A DNA stretch of 64,000 nt from Naegleria gruberi (lineage: Eukaryota). Where the stretch lies: NCBI GenBank assembly GCA_000004985.1, contig GG738911.1. One strand, given 5' to 3'. The notes beneath the pieces were generated by a model. The model ran no database searches and was not told where the DNA came from. It worked only from the letters and a program-made list of their open reading frames with translations. Position 1 is the stretch's first letter. Each line of letters begins with the position of its first letter. Below, one piece after another: positions 6,863-26,510 of this stretch. The position numbers and the translations under genes are program-made.

Positions 6863-8055
6863 ATGGTGCGTACTTTTAAATCAAAGTGATTGATCATCAA
6901 ATCGTTAATAAATTATTCTAGGAAACATGTAAAATCTCTCCCCAGGCTTCCTCGTCATCAGTTGATAACAATGATGAAAATTTTGAAAGTAGGCTCAAGA
7001 AGAGGAAGATCAATCCCGAAGAGGCCAAACAAGAAGAAACAAAGTTAACAAGTGAAGAGGTTGATAACTTGTTTGCCAAGTTGGGAAAGAAATTAAAATC
7101 GAAAATACCTGTTGCCTTTTCTTTGGATTTTGAATATGTGCAAACAAAGGGAGACAAGTTTAATACTCCTGAGAAGATGAATGCTCCTCTTGATGTGAAG
7201 ATTTCATATAGAAATGAGATTATTTTAGTATCGGATAGTGTGAATGGAAGAATAATGGTATTTGATTTGAATAGTGGTCTGTACAAATCTGATTTTTTCA
7301 CAGAGTTGGCTCCTTGGCAATTCGTATTGGAAGAAAATTATGATGGGGAAAAGAATGAAGCACTCATTTGCTCAACAGGTAACAATTATCTCAAATATGA
7401 TTTGTTACAATTGCTCAAGTCTGATAGATCACGTAGAGCTACACCCATTTGGAAGACCAAATTTGAAAGATTTAGCTGCTTTCAATGCTGTGCTATCAAG
7501 TATGAAACGAGTGGAAATACCTTGTATTGTTGCAATAGTGCAACTGATACCATTGTTGTCTACTCTTGTGCTAATGGGTCTGTAGTGAAGAAGATTACTC
7601 AAGCTGTTTCGTTTGAGATCCCAAATGACCCTATCAATTATTCATTCGCTAGACCTGTTGGTATAGATTATAATTTCAATTCTGGAGCTCATGAATTTGT
7701 CTTGGCAATGATGGGAGAGAGTGTTTTCTATATCAGAGAAAGTCCTGATGGTACTTGGGTGGTGAGAAATGAATTGGAAACTACTGTAGTTCAAGATGGA
7801 AGCGAGAAAACAATTTTAGATATGCCATGTGCTGCATTAATAGATAGAAATAACCATAATGTCATAATTTGCTCGTATGGAACAAGTTCAATGGCTGTTT
7901 TCAATAAGGAGGGAACATTTATTAAATCATTTGGTGCAAGAGGAAGGAATGAAAATAATAGATTTATGGATCAGACAAGTTGCTGTCTTAATGAAATCAC
8001 TGGTGAGCTACTCATTGTAGACTCACACAATAATCGTGTACAAATTTACAAATGA
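6863..8055 (+). CDS. NHL-repeat beta-propeller protein (robust ORF 7069..8055; hypothesised ATG-only exon 1 at 6863..6865 spliced to 6922)
   Basis: ORF ends in NHL-type blades (GRIMVFDL, LLIVDSHNNRVQIY). The in-frame ORF extends upstream to 6922 without an ATG. ATG|GTGCGT at 6863 plus TCTAG acceptor at 6921 (56-nt intron) would provide the start. Alternative start is ATG 7177. Confidence 0.55.
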
Positions 8056-8088: not shown

Positions 8089-8779
8089 TTAAAGTGTCAA
8101 TAACATGGCAGACAATAATGCAACAATAACCAATACGGAAGCTTTCAAGATACCTGCATTATTGAAACAGTTGGCATCTCTGACCTTGATTTGCAATTGA
8201 TTGGAAGGATCATTCAAACCACTTTCACAAAAATCCTTTCCACTTGCATAAGAGGTAATGACAGGTTTTCCATTTGTAACTGGAACGAGAGCACATTTAC
8301 TGTACAATCTGTCACAGAATGATGAACACAAGTACAAGATAGATTTCTGACCCAGAATTTGAATCTTTTCCTCAATGAAATTGGTTTGTCCAGGAGAACA
8401 CAAATAACAAACTTAGGAAGTGATGTTAATAATTGGAAATTGAAAGTTTTCCCTACTTACTATATTGATGCAACTCATCTAAGCATCCACCAGCAAAAGC
8501 TTCAACAAGGAATTGAGGAATGGTAACATTTGATGAGCCACTGTTTCTTCCACTTTGACTTTCCCAACCTTGTTTAATTTTCTTTGAGCTGTCAACTGTG
8601 CAGCAACTGTTTGGGTTATACCATTGACAGGTGGCTAATTCTCTTGGAAGTGATGGAATATAACCTCTACAAGCAGATATTAATTGGTTGATGGATTCGT
8701 CCTTGGTTTGTTCTGATTGAATGAATTGAGCAGAGAACAGTAAGAGCAAGACAAAGATAATGAGAGATGAGTGAGACAT
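8089..8779 (-). CDS. secreted Cys-rich protein with C-terminal hydrophobic tail (GPI-anchor-like), 2 exons
   Basis: complement(join(8089..8411,8461..8779)). N-terminal signal peptide MSHSSLIIFVLLLLFSAQF; multiple Cys (CQWYNPNSCC...); C-terminus ASVLVIVALLSAMLLTL; 49-nt intron A|GTAAGT...CCTAAG keeps frame. Confidence 0.55.
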
Positions 8780-11212: not shown

Positions 11213-11302
11213 NNNNNNNNNNNNNNNNNNNNNNNNNNNNNNNNNNNNNNNNNNNNNNNNNNNNNNNNNNNNNNNNNNNNNNNNNNNNNNNNNNNNNNNN
11301 NN
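11213..11302. other. assembly gap (90 N) in the 5-prime flank of the OYE gene
   Basis: Run of n characters in the sequence. Confidence 0.99.
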
Positions 11303-11722: not shown

Positions 11723-14700
11723 TTATTTAAAATAATCGAATTTGAGTAATTGTTGGGCAGTTGGACGAGTTTCTCGATTCTTATCCAACATTTGTAAAAT
11801 TAATTGAATTAGTTCATTGGAGTAGGAAATTGAACAGTTTCTCATTTGTTTAGTGAGGATGGTTTGAGCATTTGATGATTGATTTCCCATTAATAAATTA
11901 CTGATTGAAGTTGTTTCGTCTTTGGTCATGATTTGATAAATTGAAACTCCCAAAGAAAAGATATCCGTGTTGAAAGAGTATGAGCTTCCCAGGGCGATTT
12001 CAGGACTAAAAATTCATGTGAATTTAATGAGAATTGATAATACTTACCTCATGAAGAGAGGAGTTCCAACATATGATTGACCTTTCATTTCTTGATGCTT
12101 TTTTGCCAATCCAAAATCTGCAATTACTATTTCGATATTATCATTCTTCAAATATTTGACAAAAATGTTGGATGGTTTGATATCTCTATAATATTATTTA
12201 GTTTAACCGATATTTCTTTTGAAACGTACCTATGAATAATTGATAGTTGAGAATGAATATAATTCAAACCTTCGCATGATTGTTTCAGTATTTGCTTAAT
12301 AATATTTTCAGAACATTCTCTTTTCAAAAATTGATTCAAATCACCACTTTCATAATAATCCATGTCAATACACAGTAAACTATCTTGGGTTATGAAATAA
12401 TCATTGACTTTCAAAATGTTTGGATGTTTGATGTGGCTTAATTGGGAGGCTTCTTTCATTATTGTATTTAAATCAGAGAATGATTCAAACTTGATTACCT
12501 TAACTGCCTTGATTCGATTTCCTGCTTTTGAATCATTAGCTTTATAGACACTTCCAAATGCACCTTGTCCAATCCTTTCTATATTAGTATATCTTGAAAA
12601 GTAATCTTCAGAATTAGAAGCAGCTGATCCGGCTGAAGAGGTAATAATTGTTGATCCAGTTGGGAAATCAGACAACTCAATATTTGAAGTGTTGATACTT
12701 GCAATATCTTTTCCTTTGTTCTTTTTTTTCTTGGAAAGACAAACAATTATTACAATTACCACAATAACAATAATCACCAAAATTAGAAAACTTGCAACTA
12801 TTGGGATAGTAATTGAAACAATTAAAACAGTGGAGGTATCTATGGAATTTGTTGGAACTACTTGCTCACAATATTGGCCTTTGAATCCTCCTTTACAAGA
12901 GCAAATATTGAAATCTGAGCAGTAACCATTTCCATTACATACTGATAAATCTGATGCAAGTGTTCCATTACAAGAGAGGGACTCACATTTAGATCCATAA
13001 TATCCTTTCAAGCATTCACAGCTTTGGTTTTGAGAGTTGAATATTGCATTTCCCACACATGAAACACTCAATTTTCGTATTGTGGTTTTAGTCATTGTAA
13101 TGAACTGACTAAGTACTAAATCACTATCAATGAAATAAACCTCTTCTGTGTTTTCATTATAGCCAATAGATGGCGAGAAACCCATAAATTTAGTGTCTTT
13201 CCCAGAAAGATTGCCTGAGTAAACGTTAATATTTTCGTTAGCACTTCCTGCTAGTGTTGTCAACAGTCCAGTTGTTCTAGTGTATTTTCGTATTATGTAC
13301 GAACCATCCAAAATAATAATATCTCCATTCTTTTTAACATAAAAGGATATTGGAGATGATAGTGAAGATTCTAAGGCTGGTAGATTATTTCCTGAATAAC
13401 CAGTCTTACCATTTCCAATAATTGTTCTCAGATAATAAGTTCCATTTGCCATCTTTTCAATTACCCTTAATAGTGTACTTGTGCAATAATAGATGGAATC
13501 CTCATTAGAGGAGTAAGAGAAGAGAATAGTACCAAAATTGGTAAAATTGGTAACTGGACCATCTGGAGAGTATGAAGAAGTTACATTGGAGGCAAATCGA
13601 GTCACAATCATTCCTGTCCTTTTTTCAAGTTTACGAAAACTTGTACTGTCCGAAAGGTAGATATCTCCATTTTCTGGATTGACAGACAATCCTTTGATTG
13701 CAATGTTTCTAAATCGTGTGTCCAAAGCTGGACCATCTGTAACTGCACCACAACCATTTCCTGCAATTTTGGTTACATTCATAGTATCCAAAAAAACTTG
13801 TACAATATGGCACACATCTACAATGAATAATGAATTATCAAAGGAAGAGTGAGCCATTGTTAATATAGATTCCGAAACTAAGAAAAAGAATGGAATTTGG
13901 CCCATTGTAGGACTCGTACCCTTTACACTCTCCGTTTGGGAAATAATTTCACCAGATGTTTCATTAAACTTCTTCAAAGAAAATCTATCCAAATAATATA
14001 TTACATTATTGGCCTCATCTCTTGCAAATGCAGATGTAATTTTACCAACTTTTCTGGAGGGGTTGATGCCAACAATTGTTTGTGTGGTAGCATTTGAGAT
14101 TGTAATGTAGGATGCAAAGGCACTGTTGTAAATTGCTCCATTGATTACTTTTATACTGCCTGATTGTCTGCAACAATATTTTAGTAAATTAATTGTTACA
14201 CAACTTACAATAAAGACTTTGATAAACTAACATTCTCTCCACTGTATCCACTGAAGTGCAGAATATATTTCCTGAATTGTTATACGAATCTGCTCCTCCA
14301 ATTTTTATGAGCTGGGAATCATTCAATCTCATTTCATAAACTTTGGCTTGAAGCATTAAATATATTTTGTCGTTGTCACATGAAAAACTTTGAAATGAAT
14401 TATCAGATGAATAAACTGTTTCATAAACTGAGAGTTCCGCCAAATTAATCTTCATTATTTTAGAATAAGAAACTAAGAAATAAACACTATAGTTTCCATT
14501 TTGGTTTACAATACATGAAGAAGTAATTGGGGGAATATTGTAAATTTGTGATTGTTCTCCATTTCTGTATATAGTTATGAAATTTGGAGAGGAAAAAAGC
14601 AAGGTACCATTTGATAAAGAATTCCCTATTCCACTAATTGAAGTGATACCGGTTGGGATGTTCAATGAAGAAAGTTGCTCTGTATAAATATTAAATAAGA

Positions 14701-15812
14701 ATACATCTGTGGAAGTGACAATTACCATATCTCCATTTGGGAATATATAAGTGTTGGTTACTATACCAATATACTTCCTCTTCGGTGAGTTTTCTATTTG
14801 TAATTTGGAATAACTCCCCAAAACAGTTTTGACCAATCCATTAGAAACCTTTCTGACAATACTACTGGTTTCTATGAAAAATAGTTCATTCTTGAACGAA
14901 AACGGGTAAGAAAGTGAAGATGTTGGACTTGTTTCGAATTGTTGAATATTTTCTCCATATGGATGATTGATGACTCCTCCAGAAAATGTGGAAACCACCT
15001 TGGTTCTTGTATCAATTTTTCTAATACAGTTATTTGTCTGGTCAACTAGGTAAACTATAGAATTTTTCAAAACCAAAGAGGAGGGGTTATAAAATAGAAC
15101 TTTCGAGTAAGAATCAATCAGATCATCTCCTTCATATCCATAGAGGTCTTGCTGTCCAATGAAAGTTGATTGTACTGCTGATCCAACAGATTTCATTTGA
15201 ACAAAATGCGAAGAAGGTGAAGTTGTCCAAATTTCATTTGATGATGTTACAAATATTCCATATCTTGATAATTAATGGAGTGAATAAACTGTTTAAAATC
15301 TTCACTTACAAATTTGATTGAGGACTCAAACCGTCAACAACTCTGTACTTTCCATTGCTATCAATACGTTTCACCCTTTCCTCATCTGTGAAATAAACCG
15401 TATCCTCTTTGCCATTGGAAACAACGTGAATATTCTTTGGAGATTTCATAATGACTGAATTGGCATCCACATTATCATAACTTCCATCCAAATATGCTTT
15501 TTCACCGCCAATAGTCGAAAGTACCCTTGTTGAAATGTCATACTTTTTGATGAGGTTGTTTTGTGTATCTGCAATGTAAAGAATATTATTCGAAGAAACA
15601 ACAATTCCCAATGGTTTGTTAAATGTAGCAGAGATGGAAGAAACTAGTCCTGTTGAAGCAGAAACTATTCTAATCTTATTGTTTTGAGTATCAGCTATAT
15701 ACAAATCACCGTTTGGAGAAACACTAAGAGATGAAGGAGTATTAAATAGAGTTTCTTTTGCATGATATCCATCACTGAAACCAGCTGTTCCCAATCCTCC
15801 AAAAACTACCAT
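11723..15812 (-). CDS. receptor-like Ser/Thr kinase #1: NHL-repeat ectodomain + EGF-like Cys repeats + TM + kinase; at least 5 exons
   Basis: complement(join(11723..12005,12048..12185,12230..14159,14209..15263,15310..15812)). NHL blades occur in ORFs 15306..15812 and 14189..15196. EGF-like CxCxxGxxGxxC; TM IVSITIPIVASFLILVIIVIVVIVIIV; kinase GQGAFGSVYKA, KAVK, HRDIKPSN (across 44-nt intron), DFG, GTPLFMSPE (across 42-nt intron). All junctions phase-checked against the ORF track. Confidence 0.75.
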
Positions 15813-16130
15813 GCTCTCATTCTTGAACCCGTATCCAAATTTCGTCTCGCCAAAGTGTTAATGGTTTAACAAAATAAAACACATTTGGTTATGTTGTGTT
15901 TAAAAGTGTGTTAGAAGAAGTAAAATTAAATTCCTTTTGTTTTGTCCTTCCGAAACAAAGATTGTTTATTACATAATAAATTGATTGTTTTGATTTTCGA
16001 AATGATGAAAGTATTGTTTAACAATAGTAATTTAGATCGAACCAAACAAAAGGATCTTTATTTAGTCTCCACTATAAATTATTCCGAAAAGACCAAACAA
16101 AGCCAATACTGTTACTGTGAAAACAAGAGG

Positions 16131-16300
16131 GCACCATTATAAATATTTATCACGGTTGCTTCATACATCACCACAGCCACCATTATAAATATTCATCACA
16201 GTTGCCACCATTATAAATATTTATCATGGTTGCTTTAAATTACAGTGCCCACCAATATAAATATTCATCACAGAACCCACCAATCATTATTACCACAAAC
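16131..16300 (+). repeat. tandem array (4-5 copies, 28-45 bp) of direct repeat CCACCATTATAAATATT(C/T)ATCAC(A/G)GTTG just upstream of the Ulp-like gene
   Basis: Directly visible copies at about 16131, 16177, 16206, 16250; each contains TATAAATA; last copy about 40 bp before ATG 16313. Confidence 0.7.
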
Positions 16301-16312
16301 CATTAAAAACAA

Positions 16313-18608
16313 ATGCCACCAAAAATACAACCTCCTACATGGTCGGAGAATGATAGAACAAACATAAAACAAATGTTTGATGCTTTTAAAAACAAATCTA
16401 TCCCTGAAAATGTTGATTTAATGAATTATGGTAGATATATTGCAAATAACTATTTAAATAGTAAAATTGTATTAGGAAATTTAAATACAAACAAAAGTAA
16501 CACGTGGAAAGAATGGGAAAAAAAAGGTTATTTAAATGATTTAGAATACTTCTATAATAATTTACAAGTGAAATACTATTTAACAAATATTAAACTATCA
16601 CCTACTAATAATCCGATTGTTGGAAATAATTATTTGATCGGAAAGGAAGTACAAGTAGATCCTAAAAAGTTATTATTTAAATCTACAACAACCAAAACTA
16701 TTAGATTAGGAAAAGGTATTTTAAGTACAATTAATGAAAATAATTATTCTATGAAAGATATTATTTATAGTACTAAATATAAAGAATGTTTTAATGAAAC
16801 AAATAGTTCATTAGATATTCCTAAACATTTGCTTTTTGAAATACCAATTGATTCTAACAAATCTACTCCAATATCAAAATGTCAAACTAAAACAGATTTA
16901 AATTTACAATCAATCAAACAATCATTCCCTCCATTATCAAGCGAAGTTGAAGAAAGTAATGTTTTTGATAATAAGGAATTAAAAATTAAAGAATTATTAA
17001 TAGATTCAACTAATGATGATGATGATAATTTGTTCGATATGGATTTAGTTTCAGAAATCTTGAAAAACAAAACAAAACCTCCATCAACTCCACCATCAAC
17101 AAAACTACCCACAACTTCTCCACCAACAACTCCACTAACAATTACTCCAACAATACCACCAACTCCACTAACAATTACTCCAACATTAGATTCTCTATTA
17201 CAAATTGCCACACCAGTAATTTTAAAAGGAGAAGAAAAAAAAAGAAAATTCGATGATTATGAAAATGATGAACAAAATGAAAAGGTTTTAAAAAGATATA
17301 TAAAATCATTAGAAGAAAAAATTAATAAGTTAGAAAAGAAAATAGAAAAAAAATCCAAAATTATTGAAAATCTTATGGAAAATCAAAACAATTCCAAGAA
17401 AGTATCAGAAATTGAATATATTATACAACAAACTAAACCTATTGCCGAAAATATTATTAATAATTCTAAAATAGTACAAAATTTTATTGGTGATGTTAAT
17501 GAATTATTAAGTCAAACACATAATTGTAAACCTGTTATTATAATGGAAAAGAAAAACAAAATTATTTTATCAGATGAGGAGAAAAATAATTACTTAAAAA
17601 TGATTACTTATCATAATGATAAATCAGTAACGTTTAATTTGGATAGTATATTAGGTAAACAAATAAGAATTTCTGAAAGCCAATATCAACAATTATTAAA
17701 TAGAGGAAATTTAAAATCTGGATTTACAAAAAACTTATTTTTGGAATTTTTTAAATTAAAATCTTCAGATTTAACAGAAGAACAAATTGAAAAGGTTTTT
17801 AGATTCTTGGCTATAATTAAACCAATAACTTTTGATAAAAAAAGATTTAAAAAAGATAGGAAAAATTTGGAAAAGAAAAAAACAAAAAACGATGATGATG
17901 ATTTTGAAGAAAATGAAATAACAAAAGATATTAATAATTCTGATAATGAAAAATTTGAAATATCAGATAATAATGTTAATCAATATGATCTTACAAATAA
18001 TTTAGAATGTATGTATTAATAATTTAATGTTAAATTTTTTAGTTTTATTTATAAATAGAGAAAGAAATATGATTATGAATAATGAATGGTTAAACGGAGA
18101 TATAATGGATAAATATTTACATATTTTACAATTACAATTCCCTTTTCTTCATTTAACAAAATGTTCTCAAAGTATTTATTTTTTGGATACTGTTTTACGT
18201 ATTATTAAAAGTGCAGAAAAAATAATAGATTATTCAAAACTTAATTTTGTTACACTCAATATACCAGGTACACATTGGTTGTTATTATGTATTAGTAAGA
18301 TTAAATCAATTGTTTATATGGACATTATTGATTCTAAAATTGATTTATTATGTGACAATCTTAAAAAAATGTTAATTAAATCATTCACACAAAACTTTTT
18401 ACCAGAAAATTGTGAATTAGTTTTAAGAAATATCAAATGTAAACAACAATCAAATGGATTTGATTGTGGATTATATGTGTTATCATTTATCCGTCAAATA
18501 GGTCAATCAAATATTGAAAATTTTAATCTTAGTAATATCAATTTTGAAAATACATTGATTATAACAAGAAACGAAATGGCTGAACAGATTAAACCAAATG
18601 GTAATTAA
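16313..18608 (+). CDS. Ulp1/SENP-like (C48, clan CE) cysteine protease with long low-complexity/Pro-Thr-rich/coiled-coil N-terminal region
   Basis: ORF 18027..18608 has catalytic signature: H in GTHWLLL, D in YMDIIDS, Q..C in QQSNGFDCGLYVLSF; domain start WLNGDIMDKYL. ORF 16313..18019 (568 aa) is in an adjacent frame. A 34-nt GTATGT..TTTTAG element (18009..18042) would join them in frame; alternatively a frameshift or two ORFs. Coding DNA is visibly AT-richer than neighbouring genes. Confidence 0.6.
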
Positions 18609-18690
18609 ATAAAGCTTCATTATTTTATGTTTTTATTAAATAATCAATTAACAAAAGTAATTTAGAAGAACTAAACAAAACCTATTTATA

Positions 18691-18790
18691 GCCACCATTA
18701 TAAATATTCATCACAGTTGTTAATTACAGTATATACGGTTAACGCTTACAACGACAACTTCAAGGGCACCATTTATTAATATTTGGCGCC
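18691..18790 (+). repeat. two further copies of the same TATAAATATT-containing repeat downstream of the Ulp-like gene
   Basis: GCCACCATTATAAATATTCATCACAGTTGTTAATTACAGT at 18691 and degenerate GGGCACCATTTATTAATATTTGGCGCC at about 18765. Confidence 0.6.
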
Positions 18791-19413
18791 AATATTAATT
18801 AAAAAAAACAACCATACAACACACTTGGCTTATAATTGGAGGTGATATGTTGTATTAATATTCTTACAACTTTTAATACAACCAATAAGTTATTATTATA
18901 TTATAATTTAATATTTGTTTTAGTATTAATGGTAGTTAGATTATTAAAATTAGAAGAATAATAAAGAATAAATAGATTAAATATTCCCGATTTAGTCATT
19001 CGTGTAAGACATGAATTGATTTGTAATATATAAAACTAATCTCTCTCTTTACTTCTTGTAAGTAATTTATATTGGAATTTAAATTCAATTATTGTAGTTA
19101 ATTGTGTGGAAATGGAAGAAATGTGAGGAAATTTAGTATGAATATTGATGATCTTATCTTTTTGAAGATGATGGAAATAATGATGATAGTAATTAAGAAA
19201 ATATTTTAAATGATATAGTAGTGATGAAGATAACGATGGAAATAATAATGAAGTTGGAATAATATATCACATGTTTCCCTCTGCGGAATACTTTTTACCA
19301 TTCAGAACTTTATATCTGCTTAATCCAATTATGAAATTTTCTTAATCTAAACATTAATAAACATTCTTCTCGAGTTTAACAAAATTGACTTTGTGCATCA
19401 AAATCATCTATGT

Positions 19414-19599
19414 TTCGTTGGTCCAAACTATCTTTATATTTTAGACAAAACCATATTGGTTTGGTTAGTCAAAACTATTTTGGTTTGATTGGTCCAAACA
19501 ATCTTCGTTTAGTTAGTAAAAACCATGTTGGTTTGGTTAGTCGGACCGGTGTTGGTTTTGTTGGTCCAAACAATATTTGTTTTGTCAAACAAAACAAAC
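19414..19599 (+). repeat. 24-bp minisatellite (about 7 units), each unit an imperfect palindrome TTGGTTTG-NNNNN-TCCAAACAA
   Basis: Units ttcgttggtccaaactatctttat / ttggtttggttagtcaaaactatt / ttggtttgattggtccaaacaatc / ttcgtttagttagtaaaaaccatg / ttggtttggttagtcggaccggtg / ttggttttgttggtccaaacaata / tttgttttgtcaaacaaaacaaac. Period 24 keeps an 8-codon frame (ORF 19410..19700). Confidence 0.75.
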
Positions 19600-19678
19600 T
19601 CGGCTTCACAAATGGCAAACCAAATTTATTTATTTTAAATTGGTCCATCCGTTTTTTGTTTTGTGCGGAGCGATTTCC

Positions 19679-19993
19679 TCATTTTAGATCGACAAAATAA
19701 AGGACCGTCCTGACACTAGGGAATATTCTGAATATCAGATGTCTTTCACAATCAGATACGTACATGTCCTCTTCCATGCCAAAACAAATACCGCATGGGG
19801 TTTTGAGATAGGCATACTTGGCATCAAACATAGTCAGCATGTCATGACCGCTGGCAGTGTTTCCAATCAATGTTTGCACTTTATAATCGAGTGCATGTAC
19901 GAACAATGATGGAGATGTATCTTGTAGGAGTAACATGCTGCTGACACATGTCAACAACAGCAAACAATGGATTGTTACAAAGGGCGTGGACAT
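19679..19993 (-). CDS. small ORF with N-terminal signal peptide (possible first exon of a secreted protein)
   Basis: MSTPFVTIHCLLLLTCVSSMLLLQ followed by hydrophilic region; no downstream exons identified. Confidence 0.3.
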   Translation of the reverse strand: MSTPFVTIHCLLLLTCVSSMLLLQDTSPSLFVHALDYKVQTLIGNTASGHDMLTMFDAKYAYLKTPCGICFGMEEDMYVSDCERHLIFRIFPSVRTVLYFVDLK

Positions 19994-20371
19994 GGTTTCT
20001 TTTTTTTTGAAAGTAACAATTACACGTTAGCCCAACAATTACAAAATTGGACCTTTACACCATCCAATATACATGGTAGTATCGGAAGAAACGCAAATTC
20101 CCCAACACAGAATTCTCCCTAGTTTTACTCAGCTGGAGTTGGGTTTAAAAGAATTCTGTTGGTTTTCTCGTGGTGTTCTAAATCATCGGTGATACATTGC
20201 TGCTTAGTAGGAAGTACTTCCACTCGAACAAACTTTTGGATTTGTCGCGGTTACACTGATGGATGCGCGTTGCTATTTTTTTAAAAAGCGTGTTTTGGCG
20301 CCTTTTTTGTGAATAACAGAACCACAACAAGAGAAGTAAGAAAACTTTATGTTGGTATTTTAGGTTTAGTC

Positions 20372-23300
20372 TCATTTCGAAAGTGCTTGAATTCTCTGGA
20401 GTATTTGTGAAGGACTAATTCTACTGGCAGGATCATATCGTATCATTTCCCACAATAAATCACAACAGAGTTCAAATACCTCCCCTTGGTACTTCACTTT
20501 CTTACTAAATTGAACAATGGCAGGGAGAAGAACTTTCGTATCGGCCTCATCATTTCCTTGCTTGACTCTCAGCAATACAGATGCATAATCTCCTGAAAGC
20601 AGTTGATAAACTATGCATCCTAAACTCCAAATATCACTTGGTGGTCCGAATTCTCCCTTAATAATTGCTTCTGGAGCACTGTATTGTAATGTACCTTCGT
20701 AGGCAGTGAGATTGGAACGATGTTGATGTCTTGATGATCCCCAATCACCGACACACAATAAAAAATCATTATTCCATTCCAAGATGGATTTTGATGAAGA
20801 TTGAGGGTTTTCTGGAGCTTTTGCAATGAAAATATTGGTTTGTTTCAAATCTCTGTGGACCATTCCTTTTGAATGGAGATAGTCGAGAGCAGATGCTATT
20901 TGCTTGATAATTTCCAAAACTAATTCTATTGGAATTTGATTTTGATGGGTGTGAATCCAATTTCTCAAATCACACTTGTACAATGGCATGATGATACAAA
21001 TGAATAAACTATTCTCGACCATTGTACAACCTAAAATTGGTACTATGAAAGGATTGGATTCCTCACTCAATTCATACATATTTACAACTTCCTTAAATTC
21101 ACTTCCAAATGGATTGGTAACTTCAATCTGTTTCACAGCAAATAATTCATCAGTTGTAATCTCTTTAAAAATAAATACAGATCCATAAGCTCCACTTCCT
21201 AATTTCTTAACTAGTACATATTCCTTTTCACGAATTCTGAAATGATTTCTTGATGATAAAAGGTTTGGTGAGCTCGTTGAGGCAAGAGGACTGCTGATTG
21301 ATTTACTATTGCCAGGTAAATCTCTTGGATGATTTTCGACCTCATCAATGGTTTGAAGAGATACTGCTGTCTTATTGGTTGATGAATCTATTGAACTAAT
21401 TGTTTCAGGTTCTGAACGATAAACAAATGATGGTAAAAGACTCTTCTTTTCTGGATCTTGGTTTTTGTTTCTTCTAAACTTTTTAAAATAGACAAATACA
21501 CCAATACCTATGAGTGCTGATGAGATGCAAAGGAGAATAATACTAACAACAATTGCTGCAGCTGTTCCATTTCCAGAATCAATATCTTGACAAAATTTTC
21601 CACTATACCCATCATCGCATTGACATTTTGTTGAGTTTTGATTGGAAGCATTTTGACTGAGGACACAAAGACCATTAGATGAACACCTTTTGGTTGAGTT
21701 TTGAGATGGGTTATTTGAGGACGGATCACAATCCAACCAAGAACATGTTTCTCCAAAATAAAAAGGAAAACACGAACACTTATTGAATGAGACACAAACT
21801 CCTTGATCATTGCATCCACTAGTTCTCAATTTTCCAAAGCAGTAAGGTAATGAACAATCATTACCTCCATATTCTGAATTACATTTGCATGTGTTATTAG
21901 AAATGCATGAACCATGAGGTTGACAATTATTAACACCATCACAATTATATTGTGTGCATAGTTGACCTTCCCATCCACTATCACATTTACAAGTATTGTT
22001 GGAAATACATTTACCATTCGAGTTGCAACAGGTTGAATCATTTGCCAATTTCCCAAAACATATTGGAATGTCACAGAGATTTCCAACCCATCCCTCTTCA
22101 CAATCATAAATATTTGGTCCAACACATATTCCATGTTGTGATGGAATATCACAAGAATATGATCCACATTGCTCATTTCCTTTCCATCCACTTTGACACA
22201 AACATGTGTTATTTGAGACACATGTACCGTGTGAATTACACACCAATGAATTATTAGCTATTATTCCAAAACAAACTGGAATATTACACAAATCTCCATA
22301 CCATCCACTGGTACAGGAATACTGATTTGGTCCAATGCAATTCAGTCCATGTGTTGGCTTGGGAACATCACAAGAAAAATTGCTACACATTGAATTACCC
22401 CTCCATCCAGATAGACAGGCGCAACTTCCATTCACACAATCACCATGACCTGAACAAACTTGACCTTGTGAATCAATACACGAGTCAGAGTATCTCATTC
22501 TAATGGTAAAAGAATCGCTATATAGAAGAGCACCTTCTGTAGTTATGGCAACACCATTAGTTCCCTGAATGGCATCAGTTGTAACAGTTGAAATTATTCC
22601 ATCAGTATTAATCTTTCTGATAGCATTATTGCCTTTACAATCGTTAATACTCTCAACTAAAACCAGAAACCTACCTGAATCTGCAATGAAAATAACTCCA
22701 TTTGAGGTGACAGTCACTGCAAGAGGATAGCTTAATTGAGCACTAGTTGCTTGTTTCCCATCTCCTTGATTACCTCTTGTTCCAGTACCTGTTGTTTTCA
22801 TATCATTAACATTTGAGGACTAATTTGAAATATTTTAAGCTTACCTGCAATTACTGAAATAGTTCCTTTCGATAATTTCAAGATTTGATTTCCTCCACTA
22901 TTCGCAATATATAAATCCCCATTAGGAGTATAAAATAAACTTGTCGGATAATTCAACAAGTTCGAGGTAGAAAGTGTTGTAATGGTCTTATCATTATTGA
23001 CCCTCCTAATAATATTCACTCTACTATCTGCAAAGTCGAAGAGGAATTGATCTGCCCACAATGATGGAGGCGCCACGACACCACTAGGTCCAGATAATGT
23101 ACATGAAGTAGCTGGTAATCCATCATTACAATTTCCATTATTGGATGCATATTTTCCTGCAATTGTTGAAATTATTCCAGTATTGTCCACTAATCTAATT
23201 AAGTTATTTGCACTATCTGCAATTAAAAGGCCGAGTGAAATCTTGGCCATAGCTTTTGGCTGATTCAAAAGAGATTGGATTGCTGGAATGCCATCATTGT

Positions 23301-24657
23301 TATAACCAGAATTGGACAAACTACCAGCAATTACATTAGCAAAACCAGTTTTCAAATCAAGTTTTAAAACTGCTGATTGATAGGAAGTAAGGTAGACTTC
23401 ACTATCACTTATGACTTGTAATTGATTCAAGTTTCGTAAAAAAGAGCTTGAAGCTGGTACATTCGGATTAAAAGTATATGGATAGAATCCACTAAAAAGG
23501 AGAGGTGTTTCCAAAGTACGAAAATTAAACTTCATTACTTGGGTTGCTGCCACATTTTGCATGGTTGACTTGAAGTAAATATGATCGTGTGAGTCCCATC
23601 CAAAAAAGTTAATTCCCACAATGTTGTTATCATACAGAACTTTCACCTTTGCCAACTGTTGAGTGGTTTGATTGAATAAAAGTAATTGACCTCCACCAGT
23701 AGAAACAACATAAGATGAATCATAACCCAAACTGATAATATGTAATGGATTTGTAATGGGTGCAAAATTGGCCCAATTATAAACTATTCCATTTGTACTG
23801 AACTGTAATAATCTATTATATCCAGAATCTACAACAATCATTCCATCTGAAGAAAGGGCAATACTTGTTGGATTTGACATTTTACAACTCAAAGGATCAG
23901 CACCATTACAATTACTTGATGATTGAGTATTCACACCTCCCATAATAACCTTACACAGAACACTATTTTCATCAAGAAATGTCATGGTTCTAATAAAATT
24001 ATTCCCACTATCAACAATGTAAAATATTCCATTATATTTTGTAATCATAGTTGGAGCACGAATGGCATTATACATGGCAGGATCATAACTCAAAGAAAGA
24101 GTTCTCAAAATTCCACTTTCCATATCAACAACTCTTATATAACTAGCAAAATTATAGACATCCAATATAAATAGAGAATTTGTCGATTCATCCAAGTAAA
24201 CTCCACTCGGTGATGTCAATGAAAATTCAGTAGCCAATCCACTCAATGATGGTTTATCTTGAGGCACAGAACAAATTCCATTTCCTGCCACAACCACACT
24301 CATATTTCCAATAATCCTTCTCACCACACAAAATTGAATATCCGATAAGTAAATTATTGGCAAACCACTCGAAATATCCAAAGATGATACATGAATATTA
24401 CCTTGTGGTGCTACAATTGGAAAATGGTAGGAATCAATAGTAGTGCCAATACTTCCGGCAACCATAATATTAGCATTAGAATATAGACCAGCAAATTGAT
24501 TCTCCAACTCCTTGGTTGAGTCAATTTCGACTGCAGAAGCTTCTGCTCGAATACTAATGTTGTGATGATCACAGTTGCAAAGTGTGATTACTGCTGTCGT
24601 CGTCGTGAGAAACCCCAAAATGATGCAAAGAAAGAGCTGCAGGAGTGATATCTTCAT
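20372..24657 (-). CDS. receptor-like Ser/Thr kinase #2: signal peptide + NHL-repeat ectodomain + many EGF-like Cys repeats + TM + kinase; 2 exons
   Basis: complement(join(20372..22788,22845..24657)). Signal peptide MKISLLQLFLCIILGFLTTTTAV; NHL blades; repeated CxSGWxGxxC EGF-like modules; TM AAAIVVSIILLCISSALIGIGVFVYF; kinase LGSGAYGSV, AVK, HRDLKQTN, DWG (variant DFG), SAPE. A 56-nt GTAAGC..ACAG intron joins the two ORFs in frame. Confidence 0.8.
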
Positions 24658-25019: not shown

Positions 25020-26510
25020 ATGTCCGAATCACTAAATACTTCTGCTACTACAAATGATGATCAATTCTATTGTCATCTTCATCATGGTGAAGAAGAACAT
25101 GAACATGATGATGAAGGGGTGATTAATTTTTGTGAAATAATGTCAAATACTAAATTATCCGATATTAATGATCAAAATTGTAAACAAACAATGTGTTTAT
25201 ATTATTTTTTAAATAAGGATCAGGATGTTAGTGATGGTGAATTTAAAATAATGAAATTTAATAATCAATTAAATTTAACTATTGAACAAATTGTTCATCC
25301 ACAAAATTTGGCATCAACTGCTATGTTTTTAATTAATATATGTGGAATTAATCATTTATATTATTTTAAATATTGTATTGCCGATGATGATGAAAATTCT
25401 CATATTGAACACGAATTTAATTCTTCTAATGAAGTTTTTATTAATGAACATTTAAAATTAGTACCATTTCCATTTAGAAAGAATGAATTTGTTACTAAAT
25501 TTGATAAAAGTGGAACCTTAATGAAAACTAATCTAAATTCTATTTGGGATAGTGAAGGTTCTATCATTAGTGTTAATAATAATACACTTGAACATTCTTA
25601 CCTAATGGTTAATGATCAAAGCAATATCAAATATATTGAAAATTTCAATGATGAAATAATTCATTTTGAACGAAATGGCCATCGTATATTTTTAACTAAA
25701 AGTGGTAAAATATATGGTTATGGAGAAAACTTGTATAATCAGTTAAATCTAAATGGGGGAAATGATAATTTCATTCAATTTATATCAGACATATCATTTG
25801 ATTCATTGTCATTTAAAAAAGTTATACCAGGCCTTTTTAAAACTCATTTCATTACTGAAAATGGTAAATTATATGCATCAGGTGAAAATTCTGATTACAA
25901 TTTAGGATGTTCAGAAGGAAAAACAAGACAGGAAATTCATAATGATATTTCAATAGATAATGGAAAGTTTCAATCAAATCCTGCACGTAAATGTGACATA
26001 ATAGATGAAAAATATGAAATTGAACATGTTTACCAAATTGGAATAAACGGGCTAAGCATTTTCTTAACTAGGGAAAAGAAATTATTAGCATGTGGAAAAT
26101 ATTTTGATGAAAATGGTAATCAAGTTATTTCAATTGGTGATATCTATCCACTAGATGGTGAAATCGATCAATTATTCATCTGTGCAAACAAGTATTTACT
26201 TGTGATTACTAAAAATGGAAAGGTTCATGTAATTGGTAAAAGAAATATCGATCCAAAGAATTATAACAAAAAATCAACTCGTATTTTAGAAGATAGATTT
26301 ATTGAAAGGGTCAAAACTCAAATTGAAACTTTAATTTCATTGGACGAAAGAATTTTTGGAAAATTAGAAATTTATCCAAATCCATTTGATATGGGTTGTG
26401 TTTTGAAATTGGAAATGTCCTTGGATTTGATAATATTTTTCAAGTCGTTGAGAAGTCAATCCCTCCAAAGCAAGACAGGCTTTTCAGATTTAACTTTCAA
26501 CTTTTGTTAA
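25020..26510 (+). CDS. RCC1-like repeat (beta-propeller) protein
   Basis: Repeated G.I/LY..GEN...QLG blades (KSGKIYGYGENLYNQLNL, NGKLYASGENSDYNLGC, KLLACGKYFDENGNQ). Confidence 0.55.
   Translation: MSESLNTSATTNDDQFYCHLHHGEEEHEHDDEGVINFCEIMSNTKLSDINDQNCKQTMCLYYFLNKDQDVSDGEFKIMKFNNQLNLTIEQIVHPQNLASTAMFLINICGINHLYYFKYCIADDDENSHIEHEFNSSNEVFINEHLKLVPFPFRKNEFVTKFDKSGTLMKTNLNSIWDSEGSIISVNNNTLEHSYLMVNDQSNIKYIENFNDEIIHFERNGHRIFLTKSGKIYGYGENLYNQLNLNGGNDNFIQFISDISFDSLSFKKVIPGLFKTHFITENGKLYASGENSDYNLGCSEGKTRQEIHNDISIDNGKFQSNPARKCDIIDEKYEIEHVYQIGINGLSIFLTREKKLLACGKYFDENGNQVISIGDIYPLDGEIDQLFICANKYLLVITKNGKVHVIGKRNIDPKNYNKKSTRILEDRFIERVKTQIETLISLDERIFGKLEIYPNPFDMGCVLKLEMSLDLIIFFKSLRSQSLQSKTGFSDLTFNFC

What the first reader, a model, noticed from the sequence alone, without database searches (positions are those of the whole stretch)
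11723..24657. Tandem pair of paralogous NHL-propeller / EGF / TM / kinase receptor genes bracketing an AT-rich insertion island
Two multi-exon genes on the same strand (11723-15812 and 20372-24657) share an unusual architecture. Both have NHL beta-propeller blades in the ectodomain, EGF/tenascin-like Cys modules, one TM helix and a cytoplasmic TKL-like Ser/Thr kinase. Their kinase N-lobes are similar (IGQGAFGSVYKA vs LGSGAYGSVFIF). Two free-standing NHL-propeller proteins (6863-8055, 39831-40733) lie in the same window. This looks like a lineage-specific expansion of NHL-sensing receptors, a teneurin-like ectodomain logic fused to a kinase. The 4.5-kb spacer between the paralogues is compositionally different (see Ulp island finding), suggesting insertion into a tandem duplication.
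Basis: partly seen in the sequence, partly recalled or inferred. Interest (0 to 1): 0.7.

Follow-up and report, generated by a model that had tools for sequence, protein, structure and literature searches.

The report
Naegleria NHL-EGF receptor kinases, one split
Two neighbouring genes of the amoeba Naegleria gruberi encode single-pass membrane receptors with beta-propeller and EGF-like outer parts and an inner protein kinase. They are only distant relatives, and the AT-rich "spacer" between them lies inside the first coding exon of one of them.

Summary
The window is Naegleria gruberi. The two genes are real and already annotated as uncharacterised proteins: NAEGRDRAFT_74151 (gene B) and NAEGRDRAFT_74149 (gene A). 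Both encode NHL propeller blades, EGF-like Cys modules, one TM helix and a complete Ser/Thr kinase. In each gene the EGF, TM and kinase N-lobe lie in one exon.

- The kinases are not TKL-like. A resembles STE20/NEK; B has no clear group.
- The genes are not close paralogues: kinases about 23% identical. A's kinase scores higher against human MST3 (107 bits) than against B (71 bits), and A's nearest relatives lie on other scaffolds.
- The quoted N-lobe similarity is the universal glycine loop.
- The two "free-standing NHL propellers" are unrelated intracellular propeller-like ORFs.

The new result concerns the island. ORF 19993-19715 encodes a signal peptide plus one NHL blade. In a paralogue this segment is continuous, in one exon, with the sequence that starts the annotated gene A. 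So the 3.9-kb island, with its antisense unannotated Ulp1-like gene, sits inside gene A, not between genes. Whether it is spliced out or has decapitated gene A is unresolved.

This is a lineage-specific variant of propeller-type receptor kinases, of moderate interest.

The parts
20372..24657 (-). Gene B (NAEGRDRAFT_74151, XP_002670873.1, UniProt D2VYK3), 1395 aa. Exons 22845-24657, 22675-22788 and 20372-22632. Introns 22789-22844 (56 nt, GTAAGC..CAG) and 22633-22674 (42 nt, GTAGGT..AAG).
   Evidence: The spliced window sequence translates exactly to P0001. Identity and accession.
24586..24657 (-). Gene B signal peptide (residues 1 to about 24, MKISLLQLFLCIILGFLTTTTAV).
   Evidence: Hydrophobicity scan. 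N-terminal helix 6-16 in the AF2 model.
22475..24396 (-). Gene B ectodomain: two tandem beta-propellers (residues about 88-352 and 410-695). The second is a six-bladed NHL propeller.
   Evidence: Pfam NHL and TEN_NHL. AF2 model: overall mean pLDDT 71.6; most 10-residue blocks of 410-660 are in the 80s-90s; six groups of four strands. Foldseek gives rmsd 2.7-2.8 A over about 330 columns to the SOQ1 and NHLRC2 NHL domains.
21590..22480 (-). Gene B array of about eight EGF-like modules (residues 694-990, 46 Cys).
   Evidence: Pfam EGF_TEN 84.5 bits, EGF_Teneurin 60.9 and EGF_2 62.2, all above cut-off. Cys map.
21491..21565 (-). Gene B transmembrane helix (about 999-1023), followed by KKFRRNK.
   Evidence: Hydrophobicity scan.
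20396..21220 (-). Gene B protein kinase domain (1114-1388). Motifs read from the sequence: Lys in AVK, HRDLKQTN, DWG in place of DFG, SAPE.
   Evidence: Pfam Pkinase 151.7 bits against PK_Tyr_Ser-Thr 87.8. Best solved relatives are CDK6, MAPK, ULK and PDK1 at 60-73 bits, with no group preference. The motifs were read directly from P0001.
19715..19993 (-). Gene A exon 1, not in the annotated model. It encodes the signal peptide (MSTPFVTIHCLLLLTCVSSMLLL) and the first NHL blade, ending ...LIFRIFP(S).
   Evidence: 966 NHL-type hits at E <= 0.001. It aligns at 42% identity (E 6e-19) with the front part of the paralogue's single first exon in L001.
15822..19714 (.). Segment of 3,893 nt interposed in gene A, between the codons for ...IFRIFPS and NESMVVFGG... 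It is AT-rich (24.9% GC). The candidate splice GTCAGG...TTCAAG is in phase, but the donor is poor.
   Evidence: The break point is defined by the paralogue, where FP|NESM is continuous. Composition. The seven window introns (four in A, two in B, one in the Ulp gene) and the two L001 introns all begin GTA.
16313..18608 (+). Unannotated gene antisense to gene A, inside the island. It encodes 753 aa, has a 34-nt intron at 18009-18042, and carries a C-terminal Ulp1/C48 cysteine-peptidase domain.
   Evidence: Pfam Peptidase_C48 E 7.5e-11. Spliced model. No homologue at E <= 1e-3 and none in viral contigs. GenBank proteins for A and B have consecutive accessions, which I read as nothing being annotated between them.
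16132..16285 (+). Four copies of the motif CACCATTATAAATATTYATCAC upstream of the Ulp1-like gene.
   Evidence: five copies in the window, all here and at 18693; none expected by chance.
18690..18719 (+). Fifth motif copy. It forms a perfect 30-nt direct repeat with 16175-16204, downstream of the Ulp1-like gene.
   Evidence: 30/30 identical.
19411..19597 (+). Array of about 7.8 copies of a 24-nt tandem repeat, near the exon-1 side of the island.
11723..15821 (-). Gene A exons 2-6 (NAEGRDRAFT_74149, XP_002670872.1, D2VYK1): 15310-15821, 14209-15263, 12230-14159, 12048-12185 and 11723-12005. With exon 1 the product is 1398 aa.
   Evidence: The annotated model P0085 starts at the ATG at 15812 and removes the TM helix as an 'intron'. 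Paralogues P0086 and P0087 keep the helix.
12865..13059 (-). Gene A EGF-like Cys-rich modules (residues 983-1047 of the full model, 10 Cys).
   Evidence: Pfam EGF_TEN, EGF_2 and EGF_Teneurin hits are all just below cut-off. The Cys pattern is conserved in P0086 and P0087.
12736..12831 (-). Gene A transmembrane helix (TVLIVSITIPIVASFLILVIIVIVVIVIIVCL), followed by SKKKKNK.
   Evidence: Hydrophobicity maximum 3.82; coordinates.
11726..12591 (-). Gene A kinase domain. Motifs read from the sequence: AVK, HRDIKPSN, DFG, GTPLFMSPE. It is split by two short introns.
   Evidence: Pfam Pkinase 188 bits against PK_Tyr_Ser-Thr 124.7. Best solved relatives are MST3/STK24, STK25, STK10, SLK and NEK1. The motifs were read directly from the model.

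Best explanation
SHOWN
- Genes A and B are adjacent, same-strand N. gruberi genes for type-I single-pass receptor-like Ser/Thr kinases.
- The outer part carries tandem NHL beta-propellers: two in B and, by motif count, about three in A. EGF-like modules follow towards the membrane, then one TM helix.
- The inner part is a Ser-rich juxtamembrane stretch and a kinase domain with the catalytic motifs present.

INFERRED MECHANISM
- A ligand or surface binds the distal propellers.
- The EGF modules act as a stiff stalk.
- Clustering of receptors allows trans-autophosphorylation of the activation loop. The Thr of GTP/GTL before the (A/S)PE motif is conserved.

EVOLUTION
- The genes belong to a Naegleria-specific family. 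The same NHL-EGF-TM ectodomain cassette is joined to at least three unrelated kinase types, or to no kinase at all. This indicates domain shuffling.
- A and B are therefore not a recent tandem duplicate.

THE ISLAND
- The AT-rich island is a secondary insertion into gene A's first coding exon. It separates the signal peptide and first blade from the other 1305 codons.
- It carries its own antisense Ulp1-like gene.
- I lean, about 55:45, towards the insertion not being removed efficiently. Gene A would then be a recently decapitated copy whose remaining ORF has not yet decayed. The alternative is a functional gene with a new 3.9-kb intron.
For: ARCHITECTURE
- Pfam domains, TM and signal-peptide scan.
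- AF2 model of the B ectodomain with two propellers and Foldseek matches to NHL domains and to LRP6 tandem propeller-EGF units.
- In both genes EGF, TM and kinase N-lobe sit in one uninterrupted exon. Ectodomain and kinase are therefore parts of one coding unit.

FAMILY AND SHUFFLING
- Hit lists with Pfam content and accessions.
- Kinase bit scores for A: 421/289 against P0086/P0087, 137 against P0004/P0016, 71 against B, 50 against N. fowleri P0015, and 107 against human STK24.
- B scores 72 against A and 73 against CDK6.
- The P0015 kinase is TKL-type: CTR1, TAK1, ZAK, Roco4.
- P0003, P0005 and P0007 have NHL and EGF Pfam domains but no kinase.

SPLIT GENE
- ORF 19993-19679 is a signal peptide plus an NHL blade.
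- The only single-stretch, near-full-length hit, P0225, lies on contig L001. L001 ends with the first 12 residues of P0086. It encodes SP-blade1-IFKIFPNESMIVFGG... in one exon.
- tblastn places residues 4-95 at window 19969-19697; similarity is lost after the FP of IFRIFP, at about 19718. Residues 87-172 fall at 15827-15570, at 70% identity.
- The annotated gene A and P0087 both start at this break and lack a signal peptide.
- About 17 blade-like units in the annotated part plus one in exon 1 gives 18, or three six-bladed propellers (weak evidence).
- No assembly gap flanks the island.

INSERTION RATHER THAN OLD INTRON
- The neighbouring window introns are 34-56 nt.
- The island ORF is 3-4 SD below local coding GC and GC3.
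- Private direct repeats flank the island's gene.

WEAK SPLICING
- The in-phase donor is GTCAGG, whereas nine of nine nearby introns begin GTA.
Against: - No transcript data were available, so ligand-driven signalling, kinase activity and the splicing state of the island are all inferred.
- The comparison that defines the break point uses a paralogue (48% identity), not an orthologue. Loss of an ancestral long intron in the paralogue is therefore not formally excluded.
- No terminal inverted repeats or clear target-site duplication mark the outer ends of the island. Its mobile nature is not shown.
- All 1398 codons of gene A, and the consensus splice sites of its four short introns, are intact. 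That fits a still-functional gene as well as a very recent disruption.
- AF2 of the gene A ectodomain was poor (pLDDT 50.7), so its blade count is only a motif and strand count.
- The family census rests on word-filtered searches (8000 candidates scored) and may miss members outside Naegleria.
Confidence: 0.7

Rival explanations
1. One reading: A and B are products of a tandem duplication, and the AT-rich island was inserted into the intergenic spacer between them.
For: The genes are adjacent, on the same strand, of near-identical length (1398 and 1395 aa) and share the same domain order. A collinear weak alignment runs across the last blades, EGF, TM and kinase. Adjacency of two members of a small family is unlikely by chance.
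Against: Kinase identity is about 23%, and the A-B score is no better than against human kinases. A's nearest relatives are on other scaffolds. Gene A's signal-peptide exon lies beyond the island, so the island is inside gene A; the real spacer is 378 bp.
Confidence: 0.07
2. The 3.9-kb segment is a functional spliceosomal intron, newly gained by insertion and holding a nested antisense gene. Gene A then still produces a full-length 1398-aa receptor.
For: A phase-0 GT...AG pair (19714 / 15822) restores ...IFRIFPS-NESMVVFGG..., one residue longer than the paralogue's junction. Exon 1 has kept an open 104-codon frame with ATG and signal peptide in a 33%-GC genome. The rest of the gene is intact.
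Against: The donor GTCAGG lacks the GTA seen in nine of nine nearby introns. The length is about 80 times that of neighbouring introns. The public model does not join the exons. Intact ORFs are equally expected shortly after a disruption.
Confidence: 0.35
3. The long interruption is ancestral: an old intron with a nested gene. The paralogue NAEGRDRAFT_72391 lost it by precise intron loss.
For: Intron positions do differ between the paralogues. L001 has an intron after NNILYIA that gene A lacks, while the next intron is shared.
Against: The segment's ORF has GC3 of 12-13% against about 30% for host genes. The segment carries private repeats found nowhere else in the window. It is far outside the local intron size range.
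Confidence: 0.08
4. Assembly artefact: the island, or exon 1, is misplaced in the draft scaffold.
For: The assembly is a draft with gaps. One 90-N run lies 420 bp beyond gene A's 3' end.
Against: No N run touches 15822-19993. The two halves of the gene are in the same orientation, in the correct order and complementary to the residue. A random misjoin would not produce that.
Confidence: 0.04

Closest known systems
Mycobacterium tuberculosis PknD and related bacterial NHL-propeller receptor Ser/Thr kinases
   Same: A Hanks-type Ser/Thr kinase is joined through a single TM helix to an extracellular beta-propeller sensor (PMC1847690, which cites Good et al. 2004 for the symmetric propeller; that it is NHL-type and six-bladed is from my own knowledge). 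Bacterial NHL proteins are the strongest non-Naegleria matches to the ectodomains. One of those hits is labelled PknD.
   Different: The polarity is opposite: in PknD the kinase is N-terminal and cytoplasmic and the propeller C-terminal. PknD has one propeller, no EGF modules and no signal peptide. I found no evidence of direct descent. The Naegleria kinases match eukaryotic STE20/NEK or orphan types.
Plant CRINKLY4 (ACR4) receptor kinases
   Same: Type-I order: N-terminal beta-propeller, then a Cys-rich domain, then TM, then a cytoplasmic Ser/Thr kinase. The signalling function resides in the propeller (bioRxiv 10.1101/2020.08.10.245050).
   Different: CR4 has a seven-bladed WD40-type propeller and a TNFR-like Cys-rich domain, with a plant RLK/Pelle kinase. 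Here the propellers are tandem six-bladed NHL units with EGF modules and non-TKL kinases. The resemblance is convergent.
Teneurins (Pfam TEN_NHL, EGF_TEN) and the solved 'teneurin-like protein' 9ifo
   Same: Both repeat families score above Pfam cut-offs. 9ifo is the best Foldseek match to the gene B ectodomain (E 1.8e-18). The EGF modules are membrane-proximal and the NHL propeller distal in both.
   Different: Teneurins are type-II proteins with a YD-shell, FN-plug, TTR and toxin-like C-terminus and no kinase (my own knowledge). None of those domains appears here, and the topology is type I.
LDL-receptor family tandem propeller-EGF units (LRP5/6, LRP2, LRP4)
   Same: Repeated six-bladed propellers alternate with, or are followed by, EGF modules in a type-I ectodomain that binds protein ligands. 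LRP6 ranks second in the fold search, E about 1e-16.
   Different: Those are YWTD propellers, not NHL. They have no intrinsic kinase and are metazoan-specific. Sequence identity is 12-15%.
Other Naegleria NHL-EGF-TM-kinase genes (NAEGRDRAFT_72391, _71566, _68566, XP_002676184.1; N. fowleri FDP41_001048)
   Same: The same domain order. _72391 and _71566 are 48% and 44% identical to gene A over nearly its full length.
   Different: None is characterised. The N. fowleri member carries a TKL-type kinase. The XP_002676184/_68566 pair carries a CDPK/STE20/NEK-like kinase. Gene B's kinase is matched only by an environmental sequence, P0002 (53% identity).

Membership tests
Eukaryotic protein kinase superfamily (Pfam PF00069), catalytically competent | Pkinase HMM above the gathering score. 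| tested here: met
   Gene A 188 bits and gene B 151.7 bits, against a cut-off of 31.7.
Eukaryotic protein kinase superfamily (Pfam PF00069), catalytically competent | Catalytic motifs present: Gly loop, VAIK Lys, alpha-C Glu, HRD..N, DFG Asp, APE. | tested here: met
   Read directly from the sequences. A: GQGAFG, AVK, HRDIKPSN, DFG, SPE. B: GSGAYG, AVK, HRDLKQTN, DWG (Asp kept, Phe to Trp), APE.
   A: top solved relatives are STE20 (STK24/25/10, SLK) and NEK1; Pkinase 188 against 124.7. B: CDK6, MAPK, ULK, PDK1; 151.7 against 87.8. In contrast, the N. fowleri relative P0015 does hit CTR1, TAK1, ZAK and Roco4.
NHL-repeat six-bladed beta-propeller | NHL repeat HMM above the gathering score. | tested here: met
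   PF01436: 66.5 bits for A and 56.6 for B, against a cut-off of 20. The exon-1 ORF alone hits 966 NHL-type proteins.
NHL-repeat six-bladed beta-propeller | Six four-stranded blades forming a closed propeller. | tested here: met
   Gene B residues 410-695: six groups of four strands; most 10-residue blocks of 410-660 have pLDDT in the 80s-90s. Superposes on the SOQ1 and NHLRC2 NHL domains at 2.7-2.8 A. For gene A the test was inconclusive (pLDDT 50.7).
EGF-like domain | EGF-family HMM above the gathering score, with six-Cys modules. | tested here: met
   Gene B: EGF_TEN 84.5 (cut-off 65), EGF_Teneurin 60.9 (24.3), EGF_2 62.2 (22.1). Gene A is only sub-threshold: EGF_TEN 27.5-29, EGF_2 21.3 against 22.1, EGF_Teneurin 20.1 against 24.3. 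For A the feature is marginal.
Type-I single-pass receptor | N-terminal signal peptide, one TM helix, positive-inside flank on the kinase side. | tested here: met
   B: both present in the annotated protein. A: TM present. The signal peptide exists only if exon 19715-19993 is joined; the public model lacks it. No dedicated signal-peptide predictor was available; the call rests on a hydrophobicity scan.
Teneurin | Type-II topology with the EGF array followed by Cys-rich/TTR/FN-plug, NHL, YD shell and a toxin-like C-terminus. | tested here: not met
   Only the NHL and EGF families hit. No YD/RHS, TTR or Tox-GHH families appear at E <= 0.001. The topology is type I with a C-terminal kinase.
Recent tandem paralogue pair | Each gene is the other's closest relative in the genome, with high identity along the whole length. 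| tested here: not met
   A's best relatives are P0086 and P0087 on other scaffolds (48% and 44%). B is absent from the top 120 hits listed for A. A-B identity is 23-29% in the long alignments. Family benchmark for a recent pair: 91%.
Ulp1/SENP (peptidase C48), island gene | Peptidase_C48 HMM above the gathering score, with His, Asp and Cys catalytic residues. | tested here: met
   42.7 bits against a cut-off of 20.7. His in PGTHW and Cys in NGFDCG were read from the sequence. The catalytic Asp was not assigned.
Transposable element (the island) | Terminal repeats, a target-site duplication, a transposase or integrase, and multiple genomic copies. | tested here: inconclusive
   No TIR or TSD at the outer ends. 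No transposase domain. Copy number could not be tested because the N. gruberi genome is not searchable here. Only internal direct repeats were found.

The most novel reading that the evidence does not exclude
The island could be a very young spliceosomal intron. It would have been created when a gene-carrying AT-rich element, with its own Ulp1-like gene on the opposite strand, landed in the first coding exon of a receptor-kinase gene. This would have happened in an organism whose introns here are about 35-55 nt. That would be a caught-in-the-act example of intron gain by insertion with instant gene nesting. Separately, the Naegleria NHL-EGF ectodomain cassette has been coupled to at least three unrelated kinase lineages. 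That would amount to an independent, modular invention of receptor kinases in Discoba.
Probability: 0.3. Interest if true: 0.6.

Novelty: new variant of a known kind. Interest (0 to 1): 0.42.

Why it matters
Receptor kinases arose independently in animals, plants, some amoebozoans and bacteria. A Naegleria-specific set would add a further origin. It couples an NHL-propeller/EGF ectodomain to different Ser/Thr kinase types, and it shows the domain shuffling behind such an origin.

For Naegleria biology, including the pathogen N. fowleri, which has a TKL-type member, these are candidate surface sensors for prey, substrate or host contact.

Practically, the work corrects three public gene models:
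- The TM helix is wrongly spliced out of XP_002670872.
- The 5' signal-peptide exons are missing from XP_002670872 and XP_002672512.
- A 753-aa Ulp1-like gene is unannotated.

It also identifies a datable insertion event inside a gene. With RNA-seq, that event could show whether large insertions become introns in this lineage.

Tried and rejected
- The look-up of encoding contigs found nothing for P0001, P0086, P0087 or for the exact window ORFs 19679-19993 and 15306-15812. The N. gruberi assembly is not in that index, so paralogue loci and island copy number could not be examined directly.
- The homology search with the 753-aa island protein gave no hit at E <= 1e-3, not even itself. The ORF is unannotated, and its low-complexity words probably filled the candidate list.
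- The viral-contig scan with the same protein found no relative. A giant-virus or virophage origin is unsupported.
- The metagenome scan with the gene A N-terminal alignment returned only a bacterial NHL protein (L002, 57% GC).
AF2 of the annotated gene A ectodomain with a 3-sequence alignment was too poor for a blade count (pLDDT 50.7).
- The apparent top PDB hit for gene B, 'EGFR' 9p9u, is a tandem two-kinase construct whose score is doubled (51 bits per domain). I rejected it as evidence of tyrosine-kinase affinity.
- I looked for TIRs and a TSD at the island ends. There is only a 5/9 match (TTCCCTAGT against TTCAAGAAT) and a 30-nt, 77% subterminal inverted match. I rejected these as insufficient.
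- Literature searches combining Naegleria with NHL, kinase, kinome, receptor kinase or teneurin found no description of this family. One search failed on a syntax error.

Full report
ORGANISM AND GENE IDENTITY

The window is a Naegleria gruberi scaffold. ORF 20372-22801(-) is 98% identical over its whole length to a 1395-aa 'predicted protein [Naegleria gruberi]' on a 261,328-bp contig. Gene B is NAEGRDRAFT_74151 (XP_002670873.1, D2VYK3). Gene A is NAEGRDRAFT_74149 (XP_002670872.1, D2VYK1). Their GenBank protein accessions are consecutive, which I read as nothing being annotated between them. Both genes are on the minus strand.

CHECKING THE OBSERVATION

Pfam scans of the ORF pieces and of the full models give hits above the curated cut-offs for NHL, TEN_NHL and Pkinase in both genes. 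Gene B also gives hits above cut-off for several EGF families. In gene A the EGF-family hits are all slightly below cut-off. It has a 10-Cys EGF-like stretch that is conserved in its paralogues.

Each protein has one very hydrophobic helix followed by a Lys/Arg cluster, which places the kinase inside the cell.

Gene A has four GT-AG introns of 46, 49, 44 and 42 nt. Gene B has two, of 56 and 42 nt, and the spliced window sequence equals XP_002670873.1 exactly. In both genes the last blades, the EGF modules, the TM helix and at least the kinase N-lobe lie in one uninterrupted exon.

An AlphaFold model of gene B residues 1-758, built from a 25-sequence alignment, has an overall mean pLDDT of 71.6. 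It shows two propellers, at 88-352 and 410-695. The second has six four-stranded blades, and most of its 10-residue blocks up to 660 have pLDDT in the 80s-90s. Foldseek places it on solved NHL domains: SOQ1 7djk/7djm and NHLRC2 6gc1, at rmsd 2.7-2.8 A over about 330 columns. Foldseek also matches the whole ectodomain to a 'teneurin-like protein' (9ifo) and to LRP6 tandem propeller-EGF units.

WHAT DOES NOT HOLD

Kinase class. Gene A's kinase best matches the STE20 kinases MST3/STK24, STK25, STK10 and SLK, and NEK1 (107-97 bits). Gene B's kinase has no preferred group: CDK6, MAPK, ULK and PDK1 score 60-73 bits. An apparent top hit labelled EGFR is a tandem two-kinase construct whose score is doubled. 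In both genes Pkinase outscores PK_Tyr_Ser-Thr by about 60 bits. 'TKL-like' is therefore not supported. A TKL-type kinase (CTR1, TAK1, ZAK, Roco4) does sit behind the same ectodomain in the N. fowleri relative FDP41_001048.

Paralogy.
- A against B is about 23% identical over the EGF-TM-kinase part and 27-40% over scattered blades.
- With the same phmmer scoring, A's kinase gives 421 and 289 bits to NAEGRDRAFT_72391 and _71566, 137 to XP_002676184/_68566, 71 to B and 107 to human STK24.
- B gives 72 bits to A and 73 to human CDK6.
- A's full-length relatives, at 48% and 44% identity, lie on other scaffolds, and B is not among the 120 hits listed for A.
- A genuinely recent pair in this family is 91% identical.

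Free-standing propellers. ORF 39831-40733 has no NHL hit. ORF 7069-8055 has one marginal hit (26 bits). The two are 19% identical to each other (E 6e-8). They lack signal peptides by inspection and show no significant similarity to the A or B ectodomains.

THE ISLAND IS INSIDE GENE A

The public gene A model, and my first model, start at Met 15812 in the middle of an NHL blade and have no signal peptide. That is incompatible with a 960-residue extracellular N-terminus.

On the far side of the island, ORF 19993-19679(-) starts with a hydrophobic signal-like segment followed by a canonical NHL blade. An exhaustive HMMER search gave 966 NHL-type hits at E <= 0.001. Among the listed hits only one covers almost the whole query in a single stretch: P0225, at 44% identity. 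P0225 lies on a 4,957-bp, 36%-GC metagenomic contig, L001. The end of L001 encodes ...HFLQMNSLIDSSTKTI, the first 12 residues of the annotated NAEGRDRAFT_72391. L001 is therefore the unannotated 5' part of gene A's closest paralogue, or of that paralogue's orthologue in a close relative.

In L001 one continuous exon encodes the signal peptide, blade 1 and ...LIFKIFP-NESMIVFGGLG.... tblastn of this protein against the window places residues 4-95 at 19969-19697 (42% identity, E 6e-19). Similarity is lost after the FP of IFRIFP, at about 19718. Residues 87-172 fall at 15827-15570 (70% identity, E 3e-37). Gene A is thus split exactly at FP|NESM. The halves are in the same order and orientation, 3,893 nt apart (15822-19714).

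With exon 1 the product is 1398 aa, against 1395 aa for gene B. The real B-to-A intergenic spacer is 378 bp. A motif and strand count gives about 17 blades in the annotated part plus one in exon 1, or three six-bladed propellers. This rests on a low-confidence model. No assembly gap touches the region; the only N run is at 11213-11302.

NATURE OF THE INTERPOSED SEGMENT

The segment has 24.9% GC. It contains a plus-strand gene, antisense to gene A, at 16313-18608. With a 34-nt intron this gene encodes 753 aa with a C-terminal Ulp1/C48 peptidase domain (Pfam E 7.5e-11). Its GC is 22-23% and its GC3 12-13%, about 3-4 SD below the other ORFs listed.

The motif CACCATTATAAATATTYATCAC occurs four times just upstream of this gene and once just downstream. 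The set includes a perfect 30-nt direct repeat, and the motif occurs nowhere else in the window. A 24-nt tandem array lies at 19411-19597.

I found no terminal inverted repeats, no convincing target-site duplication, no transposase domain, no homologue in the protein database and no viral relative. The element type therefore remains unknown.

The seven introns in genes A and B and the island gene are 34-56 nt, and with the two L001 introns all nine begin GTA. The only in-phase donor at the break is GTCAGG. I conclude, at about 0.8, that the segment is a secondary insertion into gene A's first coding exon. Whether it is spliced out is open. I lean slightly towards a recent disruption, because the donor is poor and the public model does not join the exons. 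The fully intact 1398-codon frame is equally compatible with a functional gene.

FAMILY CONTEXT AND MECHANISM

In both protein searches, every hit carrying both NHL and Pkinase Pfam domains is from Naegleria. Six are from N. gruberi on four scaffolds and one is from N. fowleri. An environmental sequence 53% identical to B was also found. Further Naegleria proteins have NHL and EGF domains without a kinase.

The kinases attached to this ectodomain fall into at least three unrelated types:
- A-like and XP_002676184-like: STE20/NEK/CAMK-like.
- B-like: orphan.
- N. fowleri: TKL.

This indicates reuse of an ectodomain-TM cassette with different kinases. Adjacency of A and B is unlikely by chance for so small a family. 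An ancient local duplication followed by strong divergence or kinase replacement is therefore still possible, but the pair is not a recent tandem duplicate.

The mechanism is inferred from the architecture and from established receptor-kinase behaviour. Ligand or surface binding by the distal propellers, with the EGF modules as a stalk, would cluster receptors and allow activation-loop autophosphorylation. The catalytic motifs are present in both kinases, with DWG replacing DFG in B. Nothing about ligand or pathway is shown.

COMPARISON WITH KNOWN SYSTEMS

- The nearest functional analogue is bacterial PknD. It has a propeller sensor, a TM helix and a Hanks kinase, but opposite polarity, one propeller and no EGF modules (PMC1847690).
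- Plant CRINKLY4 has a propeller, a Cys-rich domain, a TM helix and a kinase. Its propeller is WD40-type and its Cys-rich domain TNFR-like (bioRxiv 10.1101/2020.08.10.245050).
- LRP5/6 resembles the tandem propeller-EGF ectodomain.
- Teneurin similarity is limited to the NHL and EGF repeat families and to the membrane-proximal-EGF, distal-NHL order. The defining type-II topology and YD shell are absent.
- I found no paper describing this Naegleria family.

VERDICT

The genes are known only as uncharacterised database entries. They form a lineage-specific variant of propeller-type receptor kinases. The most informative new point is that the AT-rich Ulp1 island interrupts gene A instead of separating two genes. 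Interest is moderate, at 0.42.

Noticed in passing
window 12736-12960 (-): The public model XP_002670872.1 removes the second EGF-like module and the whole TM helix as an 'intron' (...ASDLS|NKGKD...). The open frame is continuous there, and paralogues P0086 and P0087 keep the helix. This is probably an annotation artefact that hides the receptor topology.
   Followed up: yes
L001 3982-4957: The annotated NAEGRDRAFT_72391 (P0086) starts at MNSLIDSSTKTI. Contig L001 shows at least two further upstream exons (signal peptide and about four blades). The public model is therefore 5'-truncated. P0087 also starts mid-blade without a signal peptide.
   Followed up: partly
window 16313-18608 (+): A 753-aa ORF with a 34-nt intron and a C-terminal Ulp1/C48 peptidase domain appears unannotated in N. 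gruberi. GC3 is 12-13%. The N-terminal 560 aa have no detectable domain or homologue.
   Followed up: partly
window 16132-16285 and 18690-18719 (+): Five copies of a 22-nt motif, including a perfect 30-nt direct repeat, bracket the Ulp1-like gene and occur nowhere else in the 64 kb. They could be element ends or regulatory repeats.
   Followed up: partly
window 25020-26510 (+): The RCC1-repeat ORF just upstream of gene B is the second most AT-rich ORF in the window (GC 26.3%, GC3 15.9%). The gene pair therefore has two compositional outliers in or beside it.
   Followed up: no
window 7069-8055 (+) and 39831-40733 (-): Two ORFs of about 300 aa, propeller-like and without signal peptides, are weakly related to each other (19% identity, E 6e-8). 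Both end in ...IYK. They are unrelated to the receptor ectodomains.
   Followed up: partly
window 8089-8779 (-): Two adjacent short ORFs, probably one gene with an intron. The upstream one starts with a hydrophobic, signal-like N-terminus and the downstream one has a weak folate-receptor-family hit (E 4.7e-4, below cut-off). Together they look like a small secreted Cys-rich protein.
   Followed up: no
window 19715-19993 (-): Gene A exon 1 is more GC-rich (41%, GC3 44%) than the rest of the gene (32-33%). The sample is small and the difference is unexplained.
   Followed up: no
P0015 (N. fowleri FDP41_001048), not in the window: The pathogen N. fowleri has the same NHL-EGF-TM ectodomain joined to a TKL-type kinase with a long insert. 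A longer alternative model (CAG4710226.1, 1383 aa) exists in the same 90% cluster.
   Followed up: partly
window 11213-11302: A 90-N assembly gap lies 420 bp downstream of gene A's stop codon. It is the only gap in the window.
   Followed up: yes
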